From: Saprospiraceae bacterium
GTDB lineage: Bacteria; Bacteroidota; Bacteroidia; Chitinophagales; Saprospiraceae
Reading direction: 5' to 3'
Assembly: GCA_043753405.1 (NCBI GenBank)
Contig: JAYUWT010000334.1
Span: 1 to 30,592 of the forward strand
Length of the DNA: 30,592 bases
The notes under the pieces were generated by a model. It was given only the letters and a program-made list of their open reading frames with translations. It made no database searches and was not told where the DNA came from. Both the position numbers and the translations under genes were made by a program. Within the stretch, counting starts at the first letter, position 1. Every line of letters begins with the position of its first letter. Below are positions 24,460 to 30,592 of this stretch, piece by piece.

Positions 24460-25584
24460 TCAAATAACCAAAAACGGTATTTTTATTTCCTTATTCACTC
24501 TTTTGTCCACCATCATCTCTTTGAAAAGATCAATGTAAGACAAACGGTTTTCAAGCATGGTTCCATTCTCAAAAGATATTGATGAGAATTTTTTTACCGG
24601 GGTCTCGTTTTTCATTTTAATGCGCTTAAAAAACTCAGGATAGAATATAAGTGGGAAGTGTTCAAAATCTTTAGAGCTATTTGCTTTTAAGAAAGCACGT
24701 TCTATTGAGGCACAGTTTATTTTCTTCTGTTCCGGGCTAAGGGATGATTTTTCATTTGCCGCATCATTCCAGACCATAAAATGAGCTGAAATATCTTTAA
24801 TATTCTTTAATATGCAATGCAGGTTTTCATCCAGAGGATAGAGGATCTTAACATTGACACCAACGATAAGATCAGCCGATTTGACTTTCAAAACAAGTTC
24901 AGAAAGTGCGGTCCGGTTATAACCCATATTTTCTGTGTTTATCATATTGTTTTCTGCTTCCCCCAAATTTATAATTACACCTTTCAGGCCTTTTTCAGAG
25001 AGAATGTCGAAAGCAATATCCTGGCTTTTAGCATCTACTACCAGCCAGGGTTCACAATTGGCCGGGCACCCACTCAGGAATCTTCCCAGCATATAAAGCA
25101 TGGATTTATTCTGTTCCCATTTAATATAAACCTTGTGGGTATTTTCGTTGAGTTTGAATTTGCCGGTGGTGAAAAGATCTATCGTAGTATTAAGTCTGCT
25201 TTTACTTCCGCAGGATGAAAAATCTATGTAGGTCACACCCGGATTGAATATCTGGATATCATCATTAAGTTGTTCAAATTCATTTATGATATATCGTTCA
25301 AAAGATTCCCCAAAGAAGAGCGGAATGAAAGGATTCCAAAAGAACTTACCGTTATGCTTGAGCACCTTGTCAAAATAAAACGGACTTGCTATTCCATTGT
25401 ATTTTTTATCAAGGTTTTTAAAATATTTGATCGCGGTATTAAGGCTTTTTGTTTCACCTAATCCTACTATAAAGATTCTTGTAGAAAGGGCTGACATTAA
25501 GTATTGTTTTTCGAATCTGCTGGAACTTAATATTTTGGAAGCATGTTTTTTATTGACAATGCTGATTTTTTCGTTATTCTCCAT
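24460..25584 (-). CDS. hypothetical protein, probable degenerate radical-SAM-fold homologue
   Basis: 374-aa ORF. Segments resemble a Bacteroidota radical SAM family (KHNGKFFWNPFIP..FERYIINEF; KGLKGVIINL; FPLIFYPEFFKR) but there is no CxxxCxxC. Confidence 0.7.
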   Translation of the reverse strand: MENNEKISIVNKKHASKILSSSRFEKQYLMSALSTRIFIVGLGETKSLNTAIKYFKNLDKKYNGIASPFYFDKVLKHNGKFFWNPFIPLFFGESFERYIINEFEQLNDDIQIFNPGVTYIDFSSCGSKSRLNTTIDLFTTGKFKLNENTHKVYIKWEQNKSMLYMLGRFLSGCPANCEPWLVVDAKSQDIAFDILSEKGLKGVIINLGEAENNMINTENMGYNRTALSELVLKVKSADLIVGVNVKILYPLDENLHCILKNIKDISAHFMVWNDAANEKSSLSPEQKKINCASIERAFLKANSSKDFEHFPLIFYPEFFKRIKMKNETPVKKFSSISFENGTMLENRLSYIDLFKEMMVDKRVNKEIKIPFLVI

Positions 25585-25744: not shown

Positions 25745-27166
25745 ATGCACTTTGAGAATTTGTTAACGGGCCTGATACTAAACATGTTAGTTTTTACTGC
25801 TCTTAGTTTGCCCGGACAATCCATCACTTTGTCCAATGAAATTAACATGGTTTCTGACAATAATTATGATTTGATCGGATATTTTAACAATCGGATCACC
25901 TTACTTGAGGATAACGGTCGTAATATAACGCTGCATGAATTTGATGACAATCTGAAGAGTCTGAATGCCCCTATGATCACTAATGATAATAAAAAAAGCA
26001 GATTATTTGGCTATGTGCCTCAAGACACGGTATTGACACTTTATTACAAGTACTTTGAAGAAGGACAGCATGTCATTTCCCTTGTCAATTATAATTCAGG
26101 ACTTCAAGTGACAGATGGTCTCATCCTGCAGCAATATGATAAAAACCAGCATCGAGTCCTGCCCATCAATGTTTCAGAAGACAAATCCTACCATCTGATC
26201 ATGATAGATGAAGGTTCAGGTCGCACTACAAGGTATATGATGTACGATGCACTCACCAATAAGATCATCTGGAACTACCATGACCCGGGCATTGATGTGA
26301 ATCTGTATGAAGAGGACAGGATCGCCAAGATAGTTTCGAACAAGGGTGTTTATTTCGCTTTATATGTCAATGGACATAACCGTTTTAAAAATAATTATAC
26401 TCTGGTGCGCATAGACCCCGGCGGCTATAAAAGGATGGAAGTACCGTTAAATCAGCTTCCATTATCAGACATTTATCTGGATTATGATGACGATCTTGAC
26501 AGGCTGTCACTGTTTGGGATTTATATGGACGAGGGGAATGCCGCGCAGGAAGGTTTGCTTCGTGTCGACGTGAACCCGGGATTAACAGCTTACGGTGAAA
26601 TGAAGAAAATACCTTTCGGAAGACAAACTATCATTGATTATTTTGGACAGAATCAGAGACAAAAGATGGGTATAGTAGATCTTGAATTAAACGAAGTACA
26701 GAAAAGAAAAGATGGCGGTAATCTGGTCATATGTGAACAAAAAAAAGAAGTCAACAGGGTCAACAATACGGGTAGAAGTGCATTCCTTCCTGTCAGTACC
26801 AGTACCGACTATTATATAGAAGATATAGTCCTGACCAGTCTTGATAAGGAAGGTAATCTGGAATGGCAGAAAGTGTTACAAAAAAAACAATACTCTTATG
26901 ATGATGACGCCTCCTATTCTTCATATTATATCCATGCCAATCCATCTCACCTGCGTTTGTTATACAATGATGAGATCAAATCAGAAAACACCATCAGTGA
27001 ATACATAGTTAATCCTTTGGGTAATGTAGACCGGCGAGTAATGTTCAATACCGCAGGTTCAGACCTACATGTTCAGATCAGGAACGCAAGGCAGATCAGT
27101 GCCAATTCTACCATCCTGCCTAGTATCCGTAAGGGAAAATTGAGGTTGTTGAAAGTAACTTACTAA
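25745..27166 (+). CDS. conserved exported hypothetical protein of Bacteroidota (beta-rich)
   Basis: Signal-like N-terminus; RKDGGNLVICE, YYIEDIVLTSLD..EWQKVLQKKQYSYDDDASYSSY motifs. Confidence 0.8.
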   Translation: MHFENLLTGLILNMLVFTALSLPGQSITLSNEINMVSDNNYDLIGYFNNRITLLEDNGRNITLHEFDDNLKSLNAPMITNDNKKSRLFGYVPQDTVLTLYYKYFEEGQHVISLVNYNSGLQVTDGLILQQYDKNQHRVLPINVSEDKSYHLIMIDEGSGRTTRYMMYDALTNKIIWNYHDPGIDVNLYEEDRIAKIVSNKGVYFALYVNGHNRFKNNYTLVRIDPGGYKRMEVPLNQLPLSDIYLDYDDDLDRLSLFGIYMDEGNAAQEGLLRVDVNPGLTAYGEMKKIPFGRQTIIDYFGQNQRQKMGIVDLELNEVQKRKDGGNLVICEQKKEVNRVNNTGRSAFLPVSTSTDYYIEDIVLTSLDKEGNLEWQKVLQKKQYSYDDDASYSSYYIHANPSHLRLLYNDEIKSENTISEYIVNPLGNVDRRVMFNTAGSDLHVQIRNARQISANSTILPSIRKGKLRLLKVTY

Positions 27167-27204
27167 AAAAAAGGAAGAAAAATATTTTAATTCCGCAAAA
27201 GTAA

Positions 27205-27212
27205 TATCTTTG
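27205..27212 (+). promoter_or_regulatory. -7 element (TATCTTTG) driving the tRNA-Val locus
   Basis: Exact consensus TATCTTTGC, 31 nt upstream of the first tRNA-like copy. Confidence 0.7.
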
Positions 27213-27243
27213 CCTCACTTTTGAAGAAAAGTAATTTTATTTA

Positions 27244-27305
27244 GGGAGCATAGCTCAGCTGGTTCAGTATCCCGATTTAATATCGGGAGGGTCCGCGGTT
27301 CGAAC
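27244..27305 (+). pseudogene. tRNA-Val pseudo-copy with the anticodon arm replaced by a palindrome
   Basis: 27244-27267 and 27287-27305 are identical to 27348-27371 and 27391-27409 of tRNA-Val; the intervening 19 nt differ; no 3' T-stem or acceptor strand. Confidence 0.85.
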
Positions 27306-27347
27306 TCCAACAACTTCGGGAAAGACTGAAGAAAAAAGAAATACATT

Positions 27348-27422
27348 GGGAGCATAGCTCAGCTGGTTCAGAGCATCTGCCTTACAAGCAGAGGGTCCGC
27401 GGTTCGAACCCGTGTGCTCCCA
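27348..27422 (+). tRNA. tRNA-Val(TAC)
   Basis: GGGAGCA/TGCTCCC acceptor, GCTC/GAGC D-stem, TCTGC-CTTACAA-GCAGA anticodon arm, CGCGG-TTCGAAC-CCGTG T-arm. Confidence 0.98.
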
Positions 27423-27433
27423 CAAACATTGAC

Positions 27434-27463
27434 AAGGGTCTTGAGAAATCGGGACCCTTTTTT
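27434..27463 (+). terminator. intrinsic terminator of tRNA-Val
   Basis: AAGGGTCTTGA-GAAA-TCGGGACCCTT followed by TTTT. Confidence 0.8.
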
Positions 27464-27471
27464 ATTTATAG

Positions 27472-27494
27472 AGGTTAAACAATAGGTTAAACAA
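27472..27494 (+). repeat. 11-bp direct repeat AGGTTAAACAA x2 (12-bp period)
   Basis: AGGTTAAACAA-T-AGGTTAAACAA immediately after the tRNA terminator. Confidence 0.7.
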
Positions 27495-27517
27495 GCATGT
27501 TTTTACTTTGAGTTATA

Positions 27518-27534
27518 TGTACAAATTTTGTACA
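27518..27534. promoter_or_regulatory. operator-like palindrome TGTACAAA-T-TTTGTACA over the kinase start
   Basis: Perfect 8-bp arms; contains the TTG at 27528. Confidence 0.5.
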
Positions 27535-28547
27535 CTACTAATAAAAATAACGTTTTGGGAATAAAATTCACACAGCCTGAAAATTATACAGGATTTAACT
27601 TTGAAACGAATAAAATCAAGAGGCTTAAAAAGAAAGATTTCGTAGTAGAGGATATTAAGGTTGGAGGTGATGCGCCAAAAATATTCATTAGAGCAAAATT
27701 TTATGAACACGGCCGAAGAAGAGATCATGGGACTAAGAAAAATTATATTGCAAAAGTTGGACATAAATGGTATTGTAATGAATCTATTACTGAACATCTA
27801 TTAAATAGGCTTGGCAAGTGCGTAGGGGTCAAAATTGCAAACTCTCAACTTAAATTTATTAATGGGCAACTTTATTTTTTAAGTGAGTATTTTTTACAAG
27901 CAGATCAGCAATTAATACATGGGGCAGAGATTTATAGAGGTTTCTACAAAGATGATTCCAACTTTGTAGAGGAAATTGAAGAACAAAAGCAATCTAAAAG
28001 TTTGTTTACCTTTCAAGAGACCCAACAAGCTTTAAGTGAGATATTTGGACAAAAAAATACTACAATTTATACTAACTTTGTAAAAATGCTTTTGTTTGAT
28101 GCTTTTGTTGGTAACAATGACAGACATTTTTATAATTGGGGAGTAGTAAGGCATGTTGCAAATAAGCATGAACCTTATTTTTCACCAATATATGATACCG
28201 CTAGGGGATTATTTTGGAATAAAAGTGAAGAATCCATTAATAGTTTCTTATCAAATAAGGATTCATTAGAATCAAGAATTGAAAAATATGCAATTAAGTC
28301 AACACCTAAGCTGGGTTGTTCTAAGACGGATGTAGATAATCATTTCGATCTTGTAAAAAGCATTTATGTTTGTAGCTCTAAATATCTACAAGAAATTATA
28401 AAAAACTTTATAAGCTCACTTGATTTAAATGTTTGCTTTCAGCTTATAGATGAAGAATTTATAAGTATTCTTTCATCAAACAGAATGATATTAATAAAAA
28501 AGTTATTAAAGTTTAGGCACTTAAAACTTTTAGATATCGTTAAATAG
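27528..28547 (+). CDS. HipA-family (HipT/CtkA/Stk-like) Ser/Thr kinase, core domain only
   Basis: Gly-loop VGGDAPK(46-51), YIAK76, E89, catalytic GNND198RHFYNWG, SPIYD223. Start uncertain (TTG; the first in-frame ATG is codon 187). Confidence 0.9.
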   Translation: MYTTNKNNVLGIKFTQPENYTGFNFETNKIKRLKKKDFVVEDIKVGGDAPKIFIRAKFYEHGRRRDHGTKKNYIAKVGHKWYCNESITEHLLNRLGKCVGVKIANSQLKFINGQLYFLSEYFLQADQQLIHGAEIYRGFYKDDSNFVEEIEEQKQSKSLFTFQETQQALSEIFGQKNTTIYTNFVKMLLFDAFVGNNDRHFYNWGVVRHVANKHEPYFSPIYDTARGLFWNKSEESINSFLSNKDSLESRIEKYAIKSTPKLGCSKTDVDNHFDLVKSIYVCSSKYLQEIIKNFISSLDLNVCFQLIDEEFISILSSNRMILIKKLLKFRHLKLLDIVK

Positions 28548-28552
28548 TAACA

Positions 28553-28960
28553 ATGAAAAAAATTGTCAATAATATAAAAAAGTATTTTGCAAAGCCGGAA
28601 GGCCTTGAAGACACTTATGCACCAAAGGATGTAAATGCAAAATTTTTATTAATGTATAAAAATACTGCTGTTGGAGAACTCACATTAAATGATGCTATGT
28701 GGGAGTTTAAGTATACTCCTATGTTTAAAACACAAAAAGAAGTATTACCAATTGTAGATTTTCCTGATGTAAATAAAGTTTATAAACTAGATCATTTGTG
28801 GCCATTTTTTGTGAGCCGGATTCCTGGATTAGGTCAACCAGAAGTGCAGAATGTAATTAAGAGGGAAAAAATTGATAAAGAGAATGAATTTGAACTTTTA
28901 AAGAGGTTCGGAATAAAATCTATTGCAAATCCTTTTACTTTAGAGTTATCTATAAGTTGA
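28553..28960 (+). CDS. HipS-like / HipA N-terminal (couple_hipA) domain protein
   Basis: LMYKNTAVGELTLND..WEFKY..FPDVNKVY..LWPFFVSRIP..EFELLKRFG; 5 nt after the kinase stop; no HIRAN or HTH extension. Confidence 0.85.
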   Translation: MKKIVNNIKKYFAKPEGLEDTYAPKDVNAKFLLMYKNTAVGELTLNDAMWEFKYTPMFKTQKEVLPIVDFPDVNKVYKLDHLWPFFVSRIPGLGQPEVQNVIKREKIDKENEFELLKRFGIKSIANPFTLELSIS

Positions 28961-29143
28961 AAATCAAAGCAGAAATAGCTAGATGGGAAGGACATTATGT
29001 GCCTCAAAAAATTGATCAGAAAACAATAGATATAAAGCAAGTGAAGTAACATATGTTTTGAGGTAGATCGATTCTAAATGTAAAAAGATGTATATGATTG
29101 AATCTCAAAGCAAGTAACCTTATTGTGAAGCTTTACAAACTTT

Positions 29144-29166
29144 CCTGCCGGTTTTTACATACAGGC
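29144..29166. repeat. CCTGCC-type REP-like hairpin remnant
   Basis: CCTGCCGG-TTTTTACAT-ACAGGC; shares CCTG..CAGG arms with 22031-22057. Confidence 0.35.
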
Positions 29167-29177
29167 TAGTCTACTTT

Positions 29178-29384
29178 TTACTTCAATGAATCTTTAGGCA
29201 AGTATACTGGCAATTTATCTTTGTCTAGTATAATACGCTTACTCATAATGCTATTATCAATTTCCTTTTGATATTCTTTGGGATACTGGATGTAAACATC
29301 ATTATCAGAAATATTTTTGGGAGCAGTTGTTTTATTTGAACAACTACATAAAATTAAAATAAAAAACCAAGAAATATTTTTCAT
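29178..29384 (-). CDS. small putative lipoprotein (68 aa), possibly truncated
   Basis: MKNISWFFILILCSC signal II/lipobox; ATG 29384 preferred over 29417. Confidence 0.55.
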   Translation of the reverse strand: MKNISWFFILILCSCSNKTTAPKNISDNDVYIQYPKEYQKEIDNSIMSKRIILDKDKLPVYLPKDSLK

Positions 29385-29564
29385 CGCGATTGTATTAGTA
29401 TGTACACTGCAAGTCATCTACTTTATTGATGTCCGGTAGTTGCTTTGATCCACTCAAAATATAACGTTTACTTATAACTTTTAATTATTTAACTTAAATA
29501 GGACACTTCTAAACTTTATAAAGTTAATCAGGACTAGGACTATTTTAGGTGAAGTTAGCTGAGG

Positions 29565-30590
29565 TTATTCAGAAACCTTCACAAACCTGCCTGAATACGC
29601 TCCATTCAATAAAACATTGTAAATCCCACTATTCAGATCTTTTATATCAATTCCTTCTTTCAAATGGAGAGCTTTACCACTCCAAACAACTTTACCATTC
29701 TGATCCACAATTTTAGCTAGATAGGAATCATATTGATTAGAGAATGAACTTTTAATATAATCACAAGCAGGATTTGGATAAGGCTGATGAATAAAATAAT
29801 CATAAGATTTTTTACTCATTAATACATTATATTTCAGTTTTACCACTGCGGAAGTTTCCCCTCCCTGTAACCCGTTATCATAATTAGACCCAATAATAAT
29901 ACCCGAGTTAATCAATACTAAAAAAGCTGGAGAAACATTTTTGAAGCCCAAACTAAATTTAAATAAACCCTGATCAGCAAAACTTTCAACTAAAGTTCCG
30001 TTATCATCTATATTTAAAATTATTTGTTCAAACCTCGGTTGGTTAAATTGATCTCTGAAAACTGCTGTTCCATGAAAAATGATTGTTCCATTTTGCATTT
30101 CTTCAGCAGTTACAACAAATGAGTCGAATTCACCTAACGGCAAATTAAGAACTCCCTCCTCAGCAAAATCCGAGTCAAGTATTCCATTGTTTTTAAATTT
30201 GGCAATTGTTATTTCTAATTTAGTAGTAAAAGTAACCCCAGATGTAATTATAGAACCATCATTAAGTATTATAGATTCAAATCCATTACTACCTATTACA
30301 CCTTGAATATCTACAAAACTCTTACCGATCGTATTATATGAATTATCATATGATCCCTGATTATTAAAACGTGCTGTGAATATTTTGTAAATTTCTTCCT
30401 CTGAATCTCCTGAGTGACCAGTTAATAAAATATTTGATTCTTTATCAATATTTAAATTTATAAAGGACTCAAATTCATTTATATATGGCTTAATATAACC
30501 ATCAGTTCCGAAATCTAAATCCACAACACCATCTTTATCGAATTTATAGATAATCCCTCGTTCTGATTCTTCTCCTTCTAAATTACCACA
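29565..30590 (-). CDS. T9SS type A sorting domain protein with delta-60 (DUF5122-like) repeats; 5' part beyond the window
   Basis: Frame stays open to the window end; repeats DKDGVVDLDFGTDG, NNQGSYDNSYNTIG, KNNGILDSDFAEEG, DDNGTLVESFADQG; CTD YPNPA..IVDQNGKVV..LNSGIYNV..RFVK. Confidence 0.88.
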   Translation of the reverse strand, partial: CGNLEGEESERGIIYKFDKDGVVDLDFGTDGYIKPYINEFESFINLNIDKESNILLTGHSGDSEEEIYKIFTARFNNQGSYDNSYNTIGKSFVDIQGVIGSNGFESIILNDGSIITSGVTFTTKLEITIAKFKNNGILDSDFAEEGVLNLPLGEFDSFVVTAEEMQNGTIIFHGTAVFRDQFNQPRFEQIILNIDDNGTLVESFADQGLFKFSLGFKNVSPAFLVLINSGIIIGSNYDNGLQGGETSAVVKLKYNVLMSKKSYDYFIHQPYPNPACDYIKSSFSNQYDSYLAKIVDQNGKVVWSGKALHLKEGIDIKDLNSGIYNVLLNGAYSGRFVKVSE

Positions 30591-30592
30591 AA

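What the first reader, a model, noticed from the sequence alone, without database searches (positions are those of the whole stretch)
27528..28960. hipB-less kinase->HipS module with non-canonical control residues: candidate TA / anti-phage system
Seen: an intact HipA-type kinase core followed 5 nt later by a stand-alone HipS-like gene, in the reverse of hipBST order, with no HTH antitoxin and no HIRAN domain, as first cargo after a tRNA. Known: HipA/HipT phosphorylate aminoacyl-tRNA synthetases; HipS neutralises HipT via the Trp of its PEGW motif; Gly-loop Ser autophosphorylation regulates HipA; bicistronic kinase-HipS and kinase-HipS-HIRAN operons were reported in phylogenomic surveys but are largely untested; Stk2 shows that Ser/Thr kinases can mediate abortive infection. 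Here, by my manual alignment, the HipA S150-equivalent is Lys (IKVGGDAPK vs ISVAGAQEK) and the HipS PEGW reads PGLG, so both known off-switches appear absent. Inference: a different neutralisation mode, or a phage-triggered kinase in which the HipS-like protein is a sensor or activator.
Basis: partly seen in the sequence, partly recalled or inferred. Interest (0 to 1): 0.78.

Follow-up and report, generated by a model that had tools for sequence, protein, structure and literature searches.

The report
HipA-type kinase plus HipS-like partner
Right after a tRNA-Val gene, this Bacteroidota genome carries a two-gene cassette, a short HipA/CtkA-type protein kinase followed by a small HipS-like protein, of a layout described on paper in 2021 ("hipJS") but never tested; the two "missing control residues" are real here but are ordinary variation in the family.

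Summary
ORF 27528-28547 is an intact HipA-superfamily kinase. Five bases later, ORF 28553-28960 is a stand-alone HipS-fold protein. There is no HTH and no HIRAN, and it is the first gene after tRNA-Val. Lys44 sits at the HipA Ser150 position, and PGLG sits where E. coli HipS has PEGW.

- **Conservation:** the pair is a conserved operon. 79 of 80 related genome loci have the same kinase-then-130-aa-HipS order. 152 clusters at 50% identity match at E<=1e-30.
- **Known layout:** it matches the "hipJS" organisation of Gerdes et al. 2021.
- **P-loop Ser/Thr:** this site is labile in the family. 43 of 195 members have none, with at least 13 changes on a 76-tip tree.
- **Trp:** no member has it. All carry a family motif, RIPGLGQP. 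Trp-less Legionella HipS still neutralises its kinase.
- **Binding:** a complex model (ipSAE 0.85, best control 0.00) puts that motif on the kinase P-loop, as in HipS-HipT.

Most likely this is a kinase toxin held off by HipS-like, serving as a toxin-antitoxin or abortive-infection module. It is untested, and the target is unknown. The scan has found this module type before in other genomes (e.g. e1-2154513) and reached the same verdict. It is a new, divergent member of a known kind, of modest interest.

The parts
27348..27423 (+). tRNA-Val (anticodon TAC). The cassette is the first gene after it.
   Evidence: ARAGORN. Rfam tRNA, 69.1 bits. The same 473-aa gene plus tRNA-Val is conserved in three same-genus genomes, but the genes after the tRNA differ in each.
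27434..27459 (+). Intrinsic-terminator-like hairpin with a T-run, between the tRNA and the kinase gene.
   Evidence: 11-pair stem, and the only such site found in 27200-29300.
27528..28547 (+). Short HipA/CtkA-type Ser/Thr kinase gene (339 aa from TTG 27528, or 330 aa from TTG 27555). It lacks the HipA N-subdomain-1. Putative toxin.
   Evidence: Pfam HipA_C. PADLOC PDC-M03A, E 1.6e-32. AlphaFold model pLDDT 90.5. Foldseek top hits are CtkA (TM 0.69/0.78), then HipT(Lp), HipA and HipT(Ec).
27654..27680 (+). Gly-rich (P-) loop, I43-K51 (IKVGGDAPK). K44 is at the HipA S150 / HipT S57 position and G46 at the HipT S59 position.
   Evidence: Mapping through the Pfam HipA_C model. G47, A49, P50 and K51 are invariant in the family. 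All of residues 43-51 lie in the predicted interface with the HipS-like protein.
28119..28136 (+). Catalytic loop D198-R-H-F-Y-N203.
   Evidence: hhalign puts D198 on HipA D309. D198, R199, H200, Y202 and N203 are invariant.
28194..28196 (+). Mg-binding Asp, D223 (IYDTAR).
   Evidence: Aligned to HipA D332. Invariant in the family. The motif is present in 199 of 199 family members.
28553..28960 (+). Stand-alone HipS-like gene (135 aa), the putative antitoxin or kinase-binding partner. It begins 5 nt after the kinase stop.
   Evidence: Couple_hipA and TIGR03071 above their cut-offs. Model pLDDT 89.5. Best PDB folds are HipS(Lp) 8ezr_A (TM 0.80, rmsd 2.4 A), the HipA N-domain, and HipS(Ec) 7ab3_B. 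dN/dS against a 75%-identical relative is 0.16/1.93.
28817..28840 (+). Family motif R89-I-P-G-L-G-Q-P96, in place of the PEGW (Glu63/Trp65) loop of E. coli HipS.
   Evidence: R89 and P91 are invariant; I90 and Q95 are at least 90% conserved. Alignment to 7ab3_B. Residues 88, 90-92 and 94-97 lie in the predicted interface.

Best explanation
This is a self-contained two-gene operon of the 'hipJS' type: a short HipA-superfamily Ser/Thr kinase, followed by a separately encoded copy of the domain that HipA carries at its N-terminus (HipS-like).

Shown:
- Both genes are intact and conserved as a pair.
- The kinase keeps all catalytic residues.
- The small protein has the HipS fold.

Supported by modelling only: the two proteins form a complex in which the conserved RIPGLGQP loop and the C-terminal FG..NPF segment of the HipS-like protein sit on the kinase P-loop (residues 43-51) and next to the catalytic loop (200-202).

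Inferred by analogy with HipS-HipT:
- This contact holds the P-loop in a state that cannot bind ATP, so the HipS-like protein acts as antitoxin.
- When it is lost or displaced (phage infection, or loss of the locus), the free kinase phosphorylates an essential host protein. That is most likely a translation factor such as an aminoacyl-tRNA synthetase, as for HipA and HipT. Growth then stops.

In this copy, control by P-loop autophosphorylation is unlikely because the loop has no Ser or Thr. Regulation would then rest on HipS-like binding alone. The cassette is an accessory, horizontally moving element, not core genome.
For: - **Domains and folds:**
- **Pair conservation:** 79 of 80 genome loci have the kinase followed at once by a ~130-aa HipS-like gene on the same strand. 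26 of them have a 4-nt overlap.
- **No third partner:** no family occurs in more than 3 of about 70 flanking genes.
- **Family size:** 425 of 185,579 species genomes hold a relative. 152 clusters at 50% identity match at E<=1e-30.
- **Complex model:** ipSAE 0.85 against a best control of 0.00. This mark was reached by 58 of 80 solved complexes and 2 of 110 mismatched pairs. Own alignments were used, so these counts are rough.
- **Conserved residues at the interface:** conserved HipS-like residues are enriched in the predicted interface, 13 of 26 against 22 of 109 (p 0.005).
- **Precedent:** Trp-less HipS(Lp) neutralises HipT(Lp) through the P-loop (PMC9325769).
- **Patchy distribution:** the kinase was found in 0 of 7 same-genus genomes, 4 of 24 in the family and 0 of 16 other families of the order.
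- **Composition:** GC drops from about 0.37-0.40 to 0.29 across the cassette.
- **Decayed copies:** these have a broken kinase (L008, L038, L084, L075) with HipS-like still intact in L008 and L075. The reverse was never seen.
- **Defence-type neighbours:** some relatives are flanked by type I and IIG RM, GajB-like, AbiE, Abi_2 or PD-T4-6 genes.
- **Related systems:** HipA-family kinases have been validated as anti-phage effectors with other partners, e.g. HipAD/DS-6 (PMC13092281).
Against: - No experiment exists for any kinase-then-HipS module (PMC8262856; literature searches).
- Toxicity, neutralisation, the target and any phage phenotype are all inferred.
- In HipA the homologous N-subdomain contacts the kinase without inhibiting it, so binding near the P-loop does not prove inhibition.
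- Both HipS(Ec) residues that reach into the HipT active site (Glu63, Trp65) are replaced here.
- The complex model may score well from memory of the solved HipS-HipT structures.
- In this window the neighbours are not defence genes.
- No integrase or att repeat was found.
- No own promoter was recognised.
- The window kinase sits on a long branch: 1.03 against a median of 0.31, with at most 48% identity to any other member.
Confidence: 0.6

Rival explanations
1. Split HipA: the HipS-like protein is an obligate structural subunit (the 'lid', N-subdomain-1) that completes the kinase, not an inhibitor. The heterodimer would be the working enzyme, and its activity would be controlled by something else, such as expression level, a ligand or a substrate.
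For: - HipS is homologous to HipA N-subdomain-1, which is non-inhibitory in HipA (PMC10627512).
- In E. coli HipS, antitoxin function depends on Trp65 (W65A loses it; PMC10627512), and no family member has a Trp there.
- The HipS-like protein is as conserved as the kinase (mean column identity 44-53% against 51%), which is unusual for an antitoxin.
- There is no DNA-binding autoregulator.
Against: - HipS(Lp) also lacks the Trp and still neutralises (PMC9325769).
- The predicted interface covers the whole P-loop and touches the catalytic loop.
- Decayed loci lose the kinase first.
- The patchy accessory distribution and the defence-type neighbours in some relatives fit a toxic cassette better than a housekeeping kinase.
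Confidence: 0.2
2. One reading: because the Ser and Trp switches are absent, this copy uses a new neutralisation mode, or the HipS-like protein is a phage sensor or activator of the kinase.
For: - K44 and PGLG are confirmed.
- Lys at the S150-equivalent is rare in the family, 2 of 195.
- PADLOC candidate-defence models hit both proteins.
Against: - Neither feature is specific to this copy's biology. Ser/Thr is absent in 22% of members and flips at least 13 times on the tree.
- The loop motif is family-wide.
- The modelled binding mode is the HipS-HipT one.
- Nothing in the sequence suggests a sensor domain. The HIRAN domain that prompted the sensor idea for hipIN is absent.
Confidence: 0.1
3. 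A decaying or domesticated remnant: a diverged copy that has lost regulation and possibly activity, kept by chance in this MAG.
For: - Long terminal branch, and no relative above 50% identity for the kinase.
- Non-ATG start, and no recognisable promoter.
- Decayed copies exist in related genomes.
Against: - Both frames are open.
- All 33 family-invariant kinase residues and all 12 invariant HipS-like residues are kept.
- HipS-like dN/dS is about 0.08 against its nearest relative.
Confidence: 0.05
4. An exported effector kinase acting on another cell, like H. pylori CtkA, which is the closest solved structure.
For: CtkA is the best sequence and fold match in the PDB. It is reported as an ICE-encoded pro-inflammatory Ser/Thr kinase (PMC5536186).
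Against: - No signal peptide or T9SS sorting domain was seen in the kinase (Pfam).
- Strict coupling to an intracellular-type HipS partner in 79 of 80 loci.
- The hosts are mostly free-living environmental Bacteroidota, Verrucomicrobiota and Latescibacterota.
Confidence: 0.03

Closest known systems
[quoted passage not shown]
   Same: - Short kinase without N-subdomain-1, with the Gly-rich loop near the N-terminus.
- The kinase gene comes first, with a stand-alone HipS-like gene directly downstream.
- No HTH and no HIRAN.
- Predicted toxin plus antitoxin, and never tested.
   Different: - That paper had only 2 hipJS modules and gave a size range of 279-321 aa. This family is 328-345 aa, has 152 clusters at 50% identity, and is centred on Bacteroidota.
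- Sequence relatedness to the two published HipJ proteins could not be checked, because those rows are cut from the stored Table S1.
- The paper says HipJ mostly has Ser/Thr near the loop. This copy has none.
hipBST (E. coli O127:H6, Legionella pneumophila); PMC10627512, PMC9325769
   Same: - A split HipA: a kinase core plus a separate HipS-fold protein.
- The HipS-like fold matches HipS(Lp) and HipS(Ec).
- The kinase fold matches HipT.
- The modelled contact is on the P-loop.
   Different: - Gene order is reversed (kinase then HipS), and there is no HipB.
- The kinase is closer to CtkA than to HipT. A family profile finds no HipA or HipT chain at E<=0.01.
- No P-loop Ser (K-V-G instead of S-I-S).
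- The HipS loop is RIPGLGQP instead of PEGW or PEGI.
- The HipS-like protein has an N-terminal extension of about 30 aa.
hipIN = PADLOC candidate PDC-M03 (HipA-domain kinase plus HipS-HIRAN protein); PMC8262856, PMC13245101, PMC11706625
   Same: - Kinase first and a HipS-like domain second.
- Both window proteins hit the PDC-M03 models (A: E 1.6e-32 over nearly the full length; B: E 8.5e-14).
   Different: - The partner matches only model positions 22-108 of 232, so the HIRAN half is missing.
- True hipIN pairs in the same phylum (L096, L097, HIRAN confirmed) have kinases only 23% identical, E about 1e-10, to the window kinase.
- It is therefore a separate clade and not a recent HIRAN deletion.
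CtkA (JHP0940) of Helicobacter pylori, PDB 3akj/3akk/3akl
   Same: Closest solved structure by sequence (profile E 1.3e-12) and by fold (E 9.5e-13, TM 0.69/0.78). It has the same GN(N/F)DRH catalytic loop.
   Different: CtkA is described as an ICE-borne pro-inflammatory kinase acting on host cells (PMC5536186). Identity is only 17-19%. No HipS partner was examined here.
HipAD / DS-6 (HipA-family kinase plus DUF3037/DUF1829 protein), a validated anti-phage system (PMC13092281)
   Same: A two-gene system with a HipA-family kinase whose catalytic residue is needed for defence, proposed to work as a toxin-antitoxin-like abortive-infection system.
   Different: The partner protein is unrelated (no HipS fold). 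Homology of the kinases was not tested here.

Membership tests
HipA-superfamily Ser/Thr kinase (Pfam HipA_C) | Match to the family model above its curated cut-off | tested here: met
   PF07804: 48.7 bits against a cut-off of 30.5, residues 44-237.
HipA-superfamily Ser/Thr kinase (Pfam HipA_C) | Four core motifs: Gly-rich loop with Lys, catalytic D-x-H-x-x-N, and the Mg-binding Asp | tested here: met
   GGDAPK (G47-K51), D198-R-H-F-Y-N203 and D223 are all family-invariant. D198 and D223 align to HipA D309 and D332.
HipA-superfamily Ser/Thr kinase (Pfam HipA_C) | HipA/HipT/CtkA kinase fold | tested here: met
   Model pLDDT 90.5. The top 35 Foldseek PDB hits are all CtkA, HipT or HipA chains.
HipA-superfamily Ser/Thr kinase (Pfam HipA_C) | Autophosphorylatable Ser/Thr at the P-loop (HipA S150; HipT S57/S59). 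A regulatory feature, not universal. | tested here: not met
   K44 and G46 occupy these positions, and there is no Ser or Thr in residues 37-57. In the family this site is variable.
HipS / HipA N-subdomain-1 (Couple_hipA) | Match to the domain model above its cut-off | tested here: met
   PF13657: 28.8 bits against 22.5. TIGR03071: 29.6 against 27.8. hhalign to HipA residues 8-99, E 1e-4.
HipS / HipA N-subdomain-1 (Couple_hipA) | HipS fold | tested here: met
   Model pLDDT 89.5. 8ezr_A HipS(Lp): TM 0.80, rmsd 2.4 A. 7ab3_B HipS(Ec): TM 0.78.
HipS / HipA N-subdomain-1 (Couple_hipA) | Trp65 wedge of E. coli HipS. [quoted passage not shown] | tested here: not met
   G94 is at that position. No member of the family has Trp there.
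hipJS module (Gerdes 2021; the family is defined by gene organisation) | Short kinase lacking N-subdomain-1, with a stand-alone HipS gene directly downstream, no HTH and no HIRAN | tested here: met
   for the window. The same layout is seen in 79 of 80 relatives.
hipJS module (Gerdes 2021; the family is defined by gene organisation) | Kinase falls in the HipJ subclade of main clade XI, next to HipI | not testable with these tools
   The two HipJ sequences are not in the stored part of Table S1. The kinase is only distantly related to HipI-type kinases of the same phylum.
hipBST tripartite system | Operon order hipB-hipS-hipT, with an HTH HipB | tested here: not met
   The order is kinase then HipS. 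No HTH gene is adjacent. The only hipB found in the genome is paired with its own canonical hipA on contig C103.
PADLOC PDC-M03 / hipIN | Second protein is HipS-like plus a HIRAN domain | tested here: not met
   PDC-M03B models match only their positions 22-108 of about 232-255. There is no HIRAN hit.
Type II toxin-antitoxin system | Toxin arrests growth, and the cognate protein neutralises it by direct binding | not testable with these tools
   Only a binding model is available: ipSAE 0.85 against 0.00 for the controls.
Anti-phage defence system | Enrichment next to known defence genes, and protection in a phage assay | tested here: inconclusive
   Some of the 140 nearest neighbours in relatives are RM, GajB-like, AbiE, Abi_2 or PD-T4-6 genes, but most are unrelated and no background rate was computed. 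There are none in this window.

The most novel reading that the evidence does not exclude
In this large Bacteroidota-centred clade the HipS-like protein is not a classical antitoxin. It lacks both E. coli HipS residues that enter the kinase active site (Glu63, Trp65) and carries its own invariant RIPGLGQP loop. It could be an obligate activating or specificity subunit of a split kinase, or a switch that a phage product displaces. In copies such as this one, with no P-loop Ser/Thr, it would be the only control on the kinase.
Probability: 0.2. Interest if true: 0.6.

Novelty: new member of a known kind. Interest (0 to 1): 0.3.

Why it matters
Kinase-first Hip modules (hipJS, hipIN, hipL) were predicted in 2021 and are listed as defence candidates, but none has been tested. 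This clade is much larger than the two hipJS examples in the literature, with hundreds of species in Bacteroidota, Verrucomicrobiota, Latescibacterota and Balneolota. It offers a natural series in which the P-loop Ser/Thr is present or absent while the HipS loop motif stays fixed. That makes it a convenient system for asking two questions: whether HipS-type inhibition needs autophosphorylation or the Trp wedge at all, and what these kinases phosphorylate. For this single locus the gain is modest, since it mainly corrects the idea that the two substitutions mark a new mechanism.

Tried and rejected
1. **HipJ sequences.** I looked for the published HipJ/HipS sequences for a direct comparison. 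The stored Table S1 is cut before clade XI, and no accession appears in the text.
2. **Kinase profile against HipA.** Profile-profile alignment of the kinase family to E. coli HipA covered only the catalytic and Mg loops. The S150 mapping therefore rests on the shared Pfam model coordinates and on the G-x3-K spacing.
3. **Island borders.** No direct repeat of the tRNA 3' end and no integrase were found. The genes after tRNA-Val in same-genus genomes are housekeeping genes, not defence genes, so this is a synteny break and not a demonstrated defence hotspot.
4. **tRNA adjacency as a family trait.** Only 6 of 80 loci have a tRNA within 1.5 kb.
5. **Promoter.** There is no sigma-70-like site and no Bacteroidota TAnnTTTG box between the terminator and the start codon. 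Motif counts are at chance level.
6. **Co-variation.** The link between the kinase P-loop state and the HipS loop motif in 79 pairs is weak (Fisher p 0.04, not corrected for phylogeny), so it is not used.
7. **A third conserved gene or HipB in relatives.** None was found.
8. **Insert in L023.** Rfam found nothing in the 1.7-kb insert that splits the pair.
9. **Literature.** No experimental work on hipJS, hipIN, hipL or PDC-M03 was found.
Full report
**What is there**

The window is a whole 30.6-kb contig of a 78%-complete MAG. At its right end lie, in order:
- a 473-aa gene (25745-27166);
- a degenerate copy of tRNA-Val;
- the real tRNA-Val(TAC) at 27348-27423;
- a terminator-like hairpin at 27434-27459;
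- two co-oriented ORFs, 27528-28547 (339 aa) and 28553-28960 (135 aa), separated by 5 nt.

The first ORF starts with TTG. A second TTG at 27555 gives the 330-aa product held in the protein database and fits the N-termini of relatives better. GC falls from about 0.37-0.40 to 0.29 over the two genes.

**The kinase**
- It matches Pfam HipA_C above the cut-off and PADLOC PDC-M03A at E 1.6e-32 over nearly its full length.
- A 36-sequence alignment shows 33 invariant positions. These include GGDAPK (the Gly-rich loop), DRHFYNW (the catalytic loop) and IYDTAR (the Mg site).
- hhalign puts D198 and D223 on HipA D309 and D332.
- The AlphaFold model is confident (pLDDT 90.5).
- Its best PDB neighbours are CtkA of H. 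pylori (TM 0.69/0.78). HipT of Legionella, HipA, and HipT of E. coli follow.
- By sequence, only CtkA is found, even with a family profile.
- So it is an intact member of the HipA superfamily, of the short CtkA-like kind that lacks N-subdomain-1.

**The small protein**
- It passes Couple_hipA and TIGR03071.
- It aligns to HipA residues 8-99.
- It is modelled with pLDDT 89.5.
- It superposes best on HipS(Lp) (TM 0.80, 2.4 A), the HipA N-domain and HipS(Ec).
- It matches only the first half of the PDC-M03B (HipS-HIRAN) models, and there is no HIRAN domain.

- *Lys44.* Window residue 44 and HipA residue 150 both fall on position 2 of the HipA_C model. The Gly-to-Lys spacing of the loop is the same as in HipT(Lp), which reads MSVQGVQKK (PMC9325769). 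Lys44 is therefore the Ser150/Ser57 equivalent, and Gly46 is the Ser59 equivalent.
- *PGLG.* The family profile aligns the window's WPFFxxRIP with HPYFASLAP(62) of E. coli HipS. P91-G92-L93-G94 therefore stand for P62-E63-G64-W65.
- Both observations are correct.

**Why they do not carry the proposed inference**
- *P-loop Ser/Thr.* Among 195 family members, 105 have Ser/Thr at the first position and 85 at the second. 38 have both and 43 have neither. On a tree of 76 genome-derived kinases, the state 'any Ser/Thr' needs at least 13 changes. The site is simply labile in this family.
- *Trp.* No member has a Trp at the W65 position. Instead R89 and P91 are invariant, and I90 and Q95 are at least 90% conserved, within a motif WPFFxxRIPGLGQP. 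[quoted passage not shown]
- *Precedent.* Legionella HipS reads PEGI there. It nevertheless neutralises HipT by forcing a loop-to-helix change in the P-loop that blocks ATP binding (PMC9325769).

**Is it a unit?**
- A scan of one genome per species found 425 relatives, and 80 were fetched.
- In 79 of 80, a ~130-aa HipS-like gene follows the kinase on the same strand. The gap is usually 0-26 nt, with a 4-nt overlap in 26 loci. The remaining locus ends with its contig.
- No third gene is conserved. The commonest Pfam family among the nearest upstream or downstream genes occurs in 3 of about 70.
- The exhaustive search finds 152 clusters at 50% identity with E<=1e-30 and 351 with E<=1e-10.
- True kinase plus HipS-HIRAN pairs (hipIN) also exist in the phylum (L096, L097; HIRAN confirmed). 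Their kinases are only 23% identical to this one. This clade is therefore not a recent HIRAN-loss derivative.

**Do the two proteins bind?**
- The complex test gave ipSAE 0.85, 0.84 and 0.85, against 0.00 for all three controls. This mark was reached by 58 of 80 solved complexes and 2 of 110 mismatched pairs. My own alignments were used, so those counts hold only roughly.
- The confident interface contains the whole kinase P-loop (43-51), residues 125-138, and H200-Y202.
- On the partner it contains 83-85, 88, 90-92, 94-97 and 119-128.
- Conserved HipS-like residues are enriched in that interface: 13 of 26 against 22 of 109, p 0.005.
- Solved HipS-HipT complexes exist. The pass therefore shows likeness to them, not proof that this pair binds.

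**Function**
- *Accessory element.* The kinase was not found in 7 same-genus genomes. It was found in 4 of 24 genomes of the family and in none of 16 other families of the order.
- *Local context.* The upstream 473-aa gene and tRNA-Val are conserved in three same-genus genomes. The genes after the tRNA differ in each and are housekeeping genes. No integrase or att repeat was found.
- *Defence neighbours.* In relatives, some immediate neighbours are type I or IIG restriction systems, GajB-like helicases, AbiE, Abi_2 or PD-T4-6 kinases. Many others are ordinary genes. In this window the neighbours are not defence genes.
- *Decay pattern.* Decayed copies have stops in the kinase while HipS-like is still intact (L008, L075). 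The reverse was never seen, though the sample is small and the kinase is the larger target.
- *Selection.* The HipS-like gene is under purifying selection against a 75%-identical relative (dN 0.16, dS 1.93).
- *Related systems.* HipA-family kinases have been shown to act in phage defence with other partners (PMC13092281).
- *Reading.* Together this favours a toxin-antitoxin or abortive-infection cassette in which HipS-like holds the kinase off (confidence 0.6). The main rival is that HipS-like is a non-inhibitory obligate subunit, as N-subdomain-1 is in HipA (0.2).

**Comparison with what is known**
- The gene organisation is exactly 'hipJS' of Gerdes et al. 2021, who had two such modules and no experiments (PMC8262856).
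- Whether this clade contains those two kinases could not be tested.
- The same genome also has a canonical hipBA on another contig, with a Ser in its P-loop. That hipB belongs to its own hipA and is not a partner of this cassette.
- The scan has met this module type repeatedly in other genomes, with the same conclusion (e.g. e1-2154513 for Bacteroidota).

**Verdict**
- This is a new, rather divergent member of a known but untested kind.
- The 'non-canonical control residues' are real, but they are family-level variation and not a sign of a new mechanism.

Noticed in passing
window 27244-27320: A degenerate 'ghost' copy of tRNA-Val lies 104 nt upstream of the real one. Blocks of 24 nt and 19 nt are identical to the tRNA, but the anticodon arm is replaced by a hairpin. 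Neither ARAGORN nor the Rfam tRNA model at E<=1 calls it. A Bacteroidota-type TAnnTTTG box sits at 27205-27212, upstream of both copies. The scan already noted this as e1-5301846.
   Followed up: partly
L106 (own genome, contig C103) 666-956 and 958-2211: The same MAG carries a separate canonical hipBA pair: a 96-aa HTH protein and a 417-aa full-length HipA with a Ser-containing P-loop (SSLGGARPK). HipA_C matches at E 1.3e-50.
   Followed up: partly
L023 6937-8658 (Lewinellaceae MAG): In one relative a 1.7-kb stretch without any long ORF separates the kinase, whose C-terminus is cut short, from an intact HipS-like gene. No Rfam family matches it. Its nature is unknown.
   Followed up: partly
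L008, L038, L075, L084 (related genomes): These are decayed copies of the cassette. The kinase has in-frame stops or an N-terminal truncation, while the HipS-like gene is intact in L008 and L075. In L038 both genes are broken.
   Followed up: partly
window 27424-30592, compared with L093, L094 and L095: Three same-genus genomes share the 473-aa gene plus tRNA-Val, but each has different genes after the tRNA: SurA-like PPIases, thrA-thrB-thrC, or a T9SS-sorted protein plus a GIY-YIG protein. This is a synteny breakpoint at the tRNA.
   Followed up: yes
window 24460-25584 (-) and 25745-27166 (+): Two large ORFs upstream (374 aa and 473 aa) have no Pfam hit at E<=0.01. The 473-aa one is conserved across the genus at 57-74% identity.
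   Followed up: no
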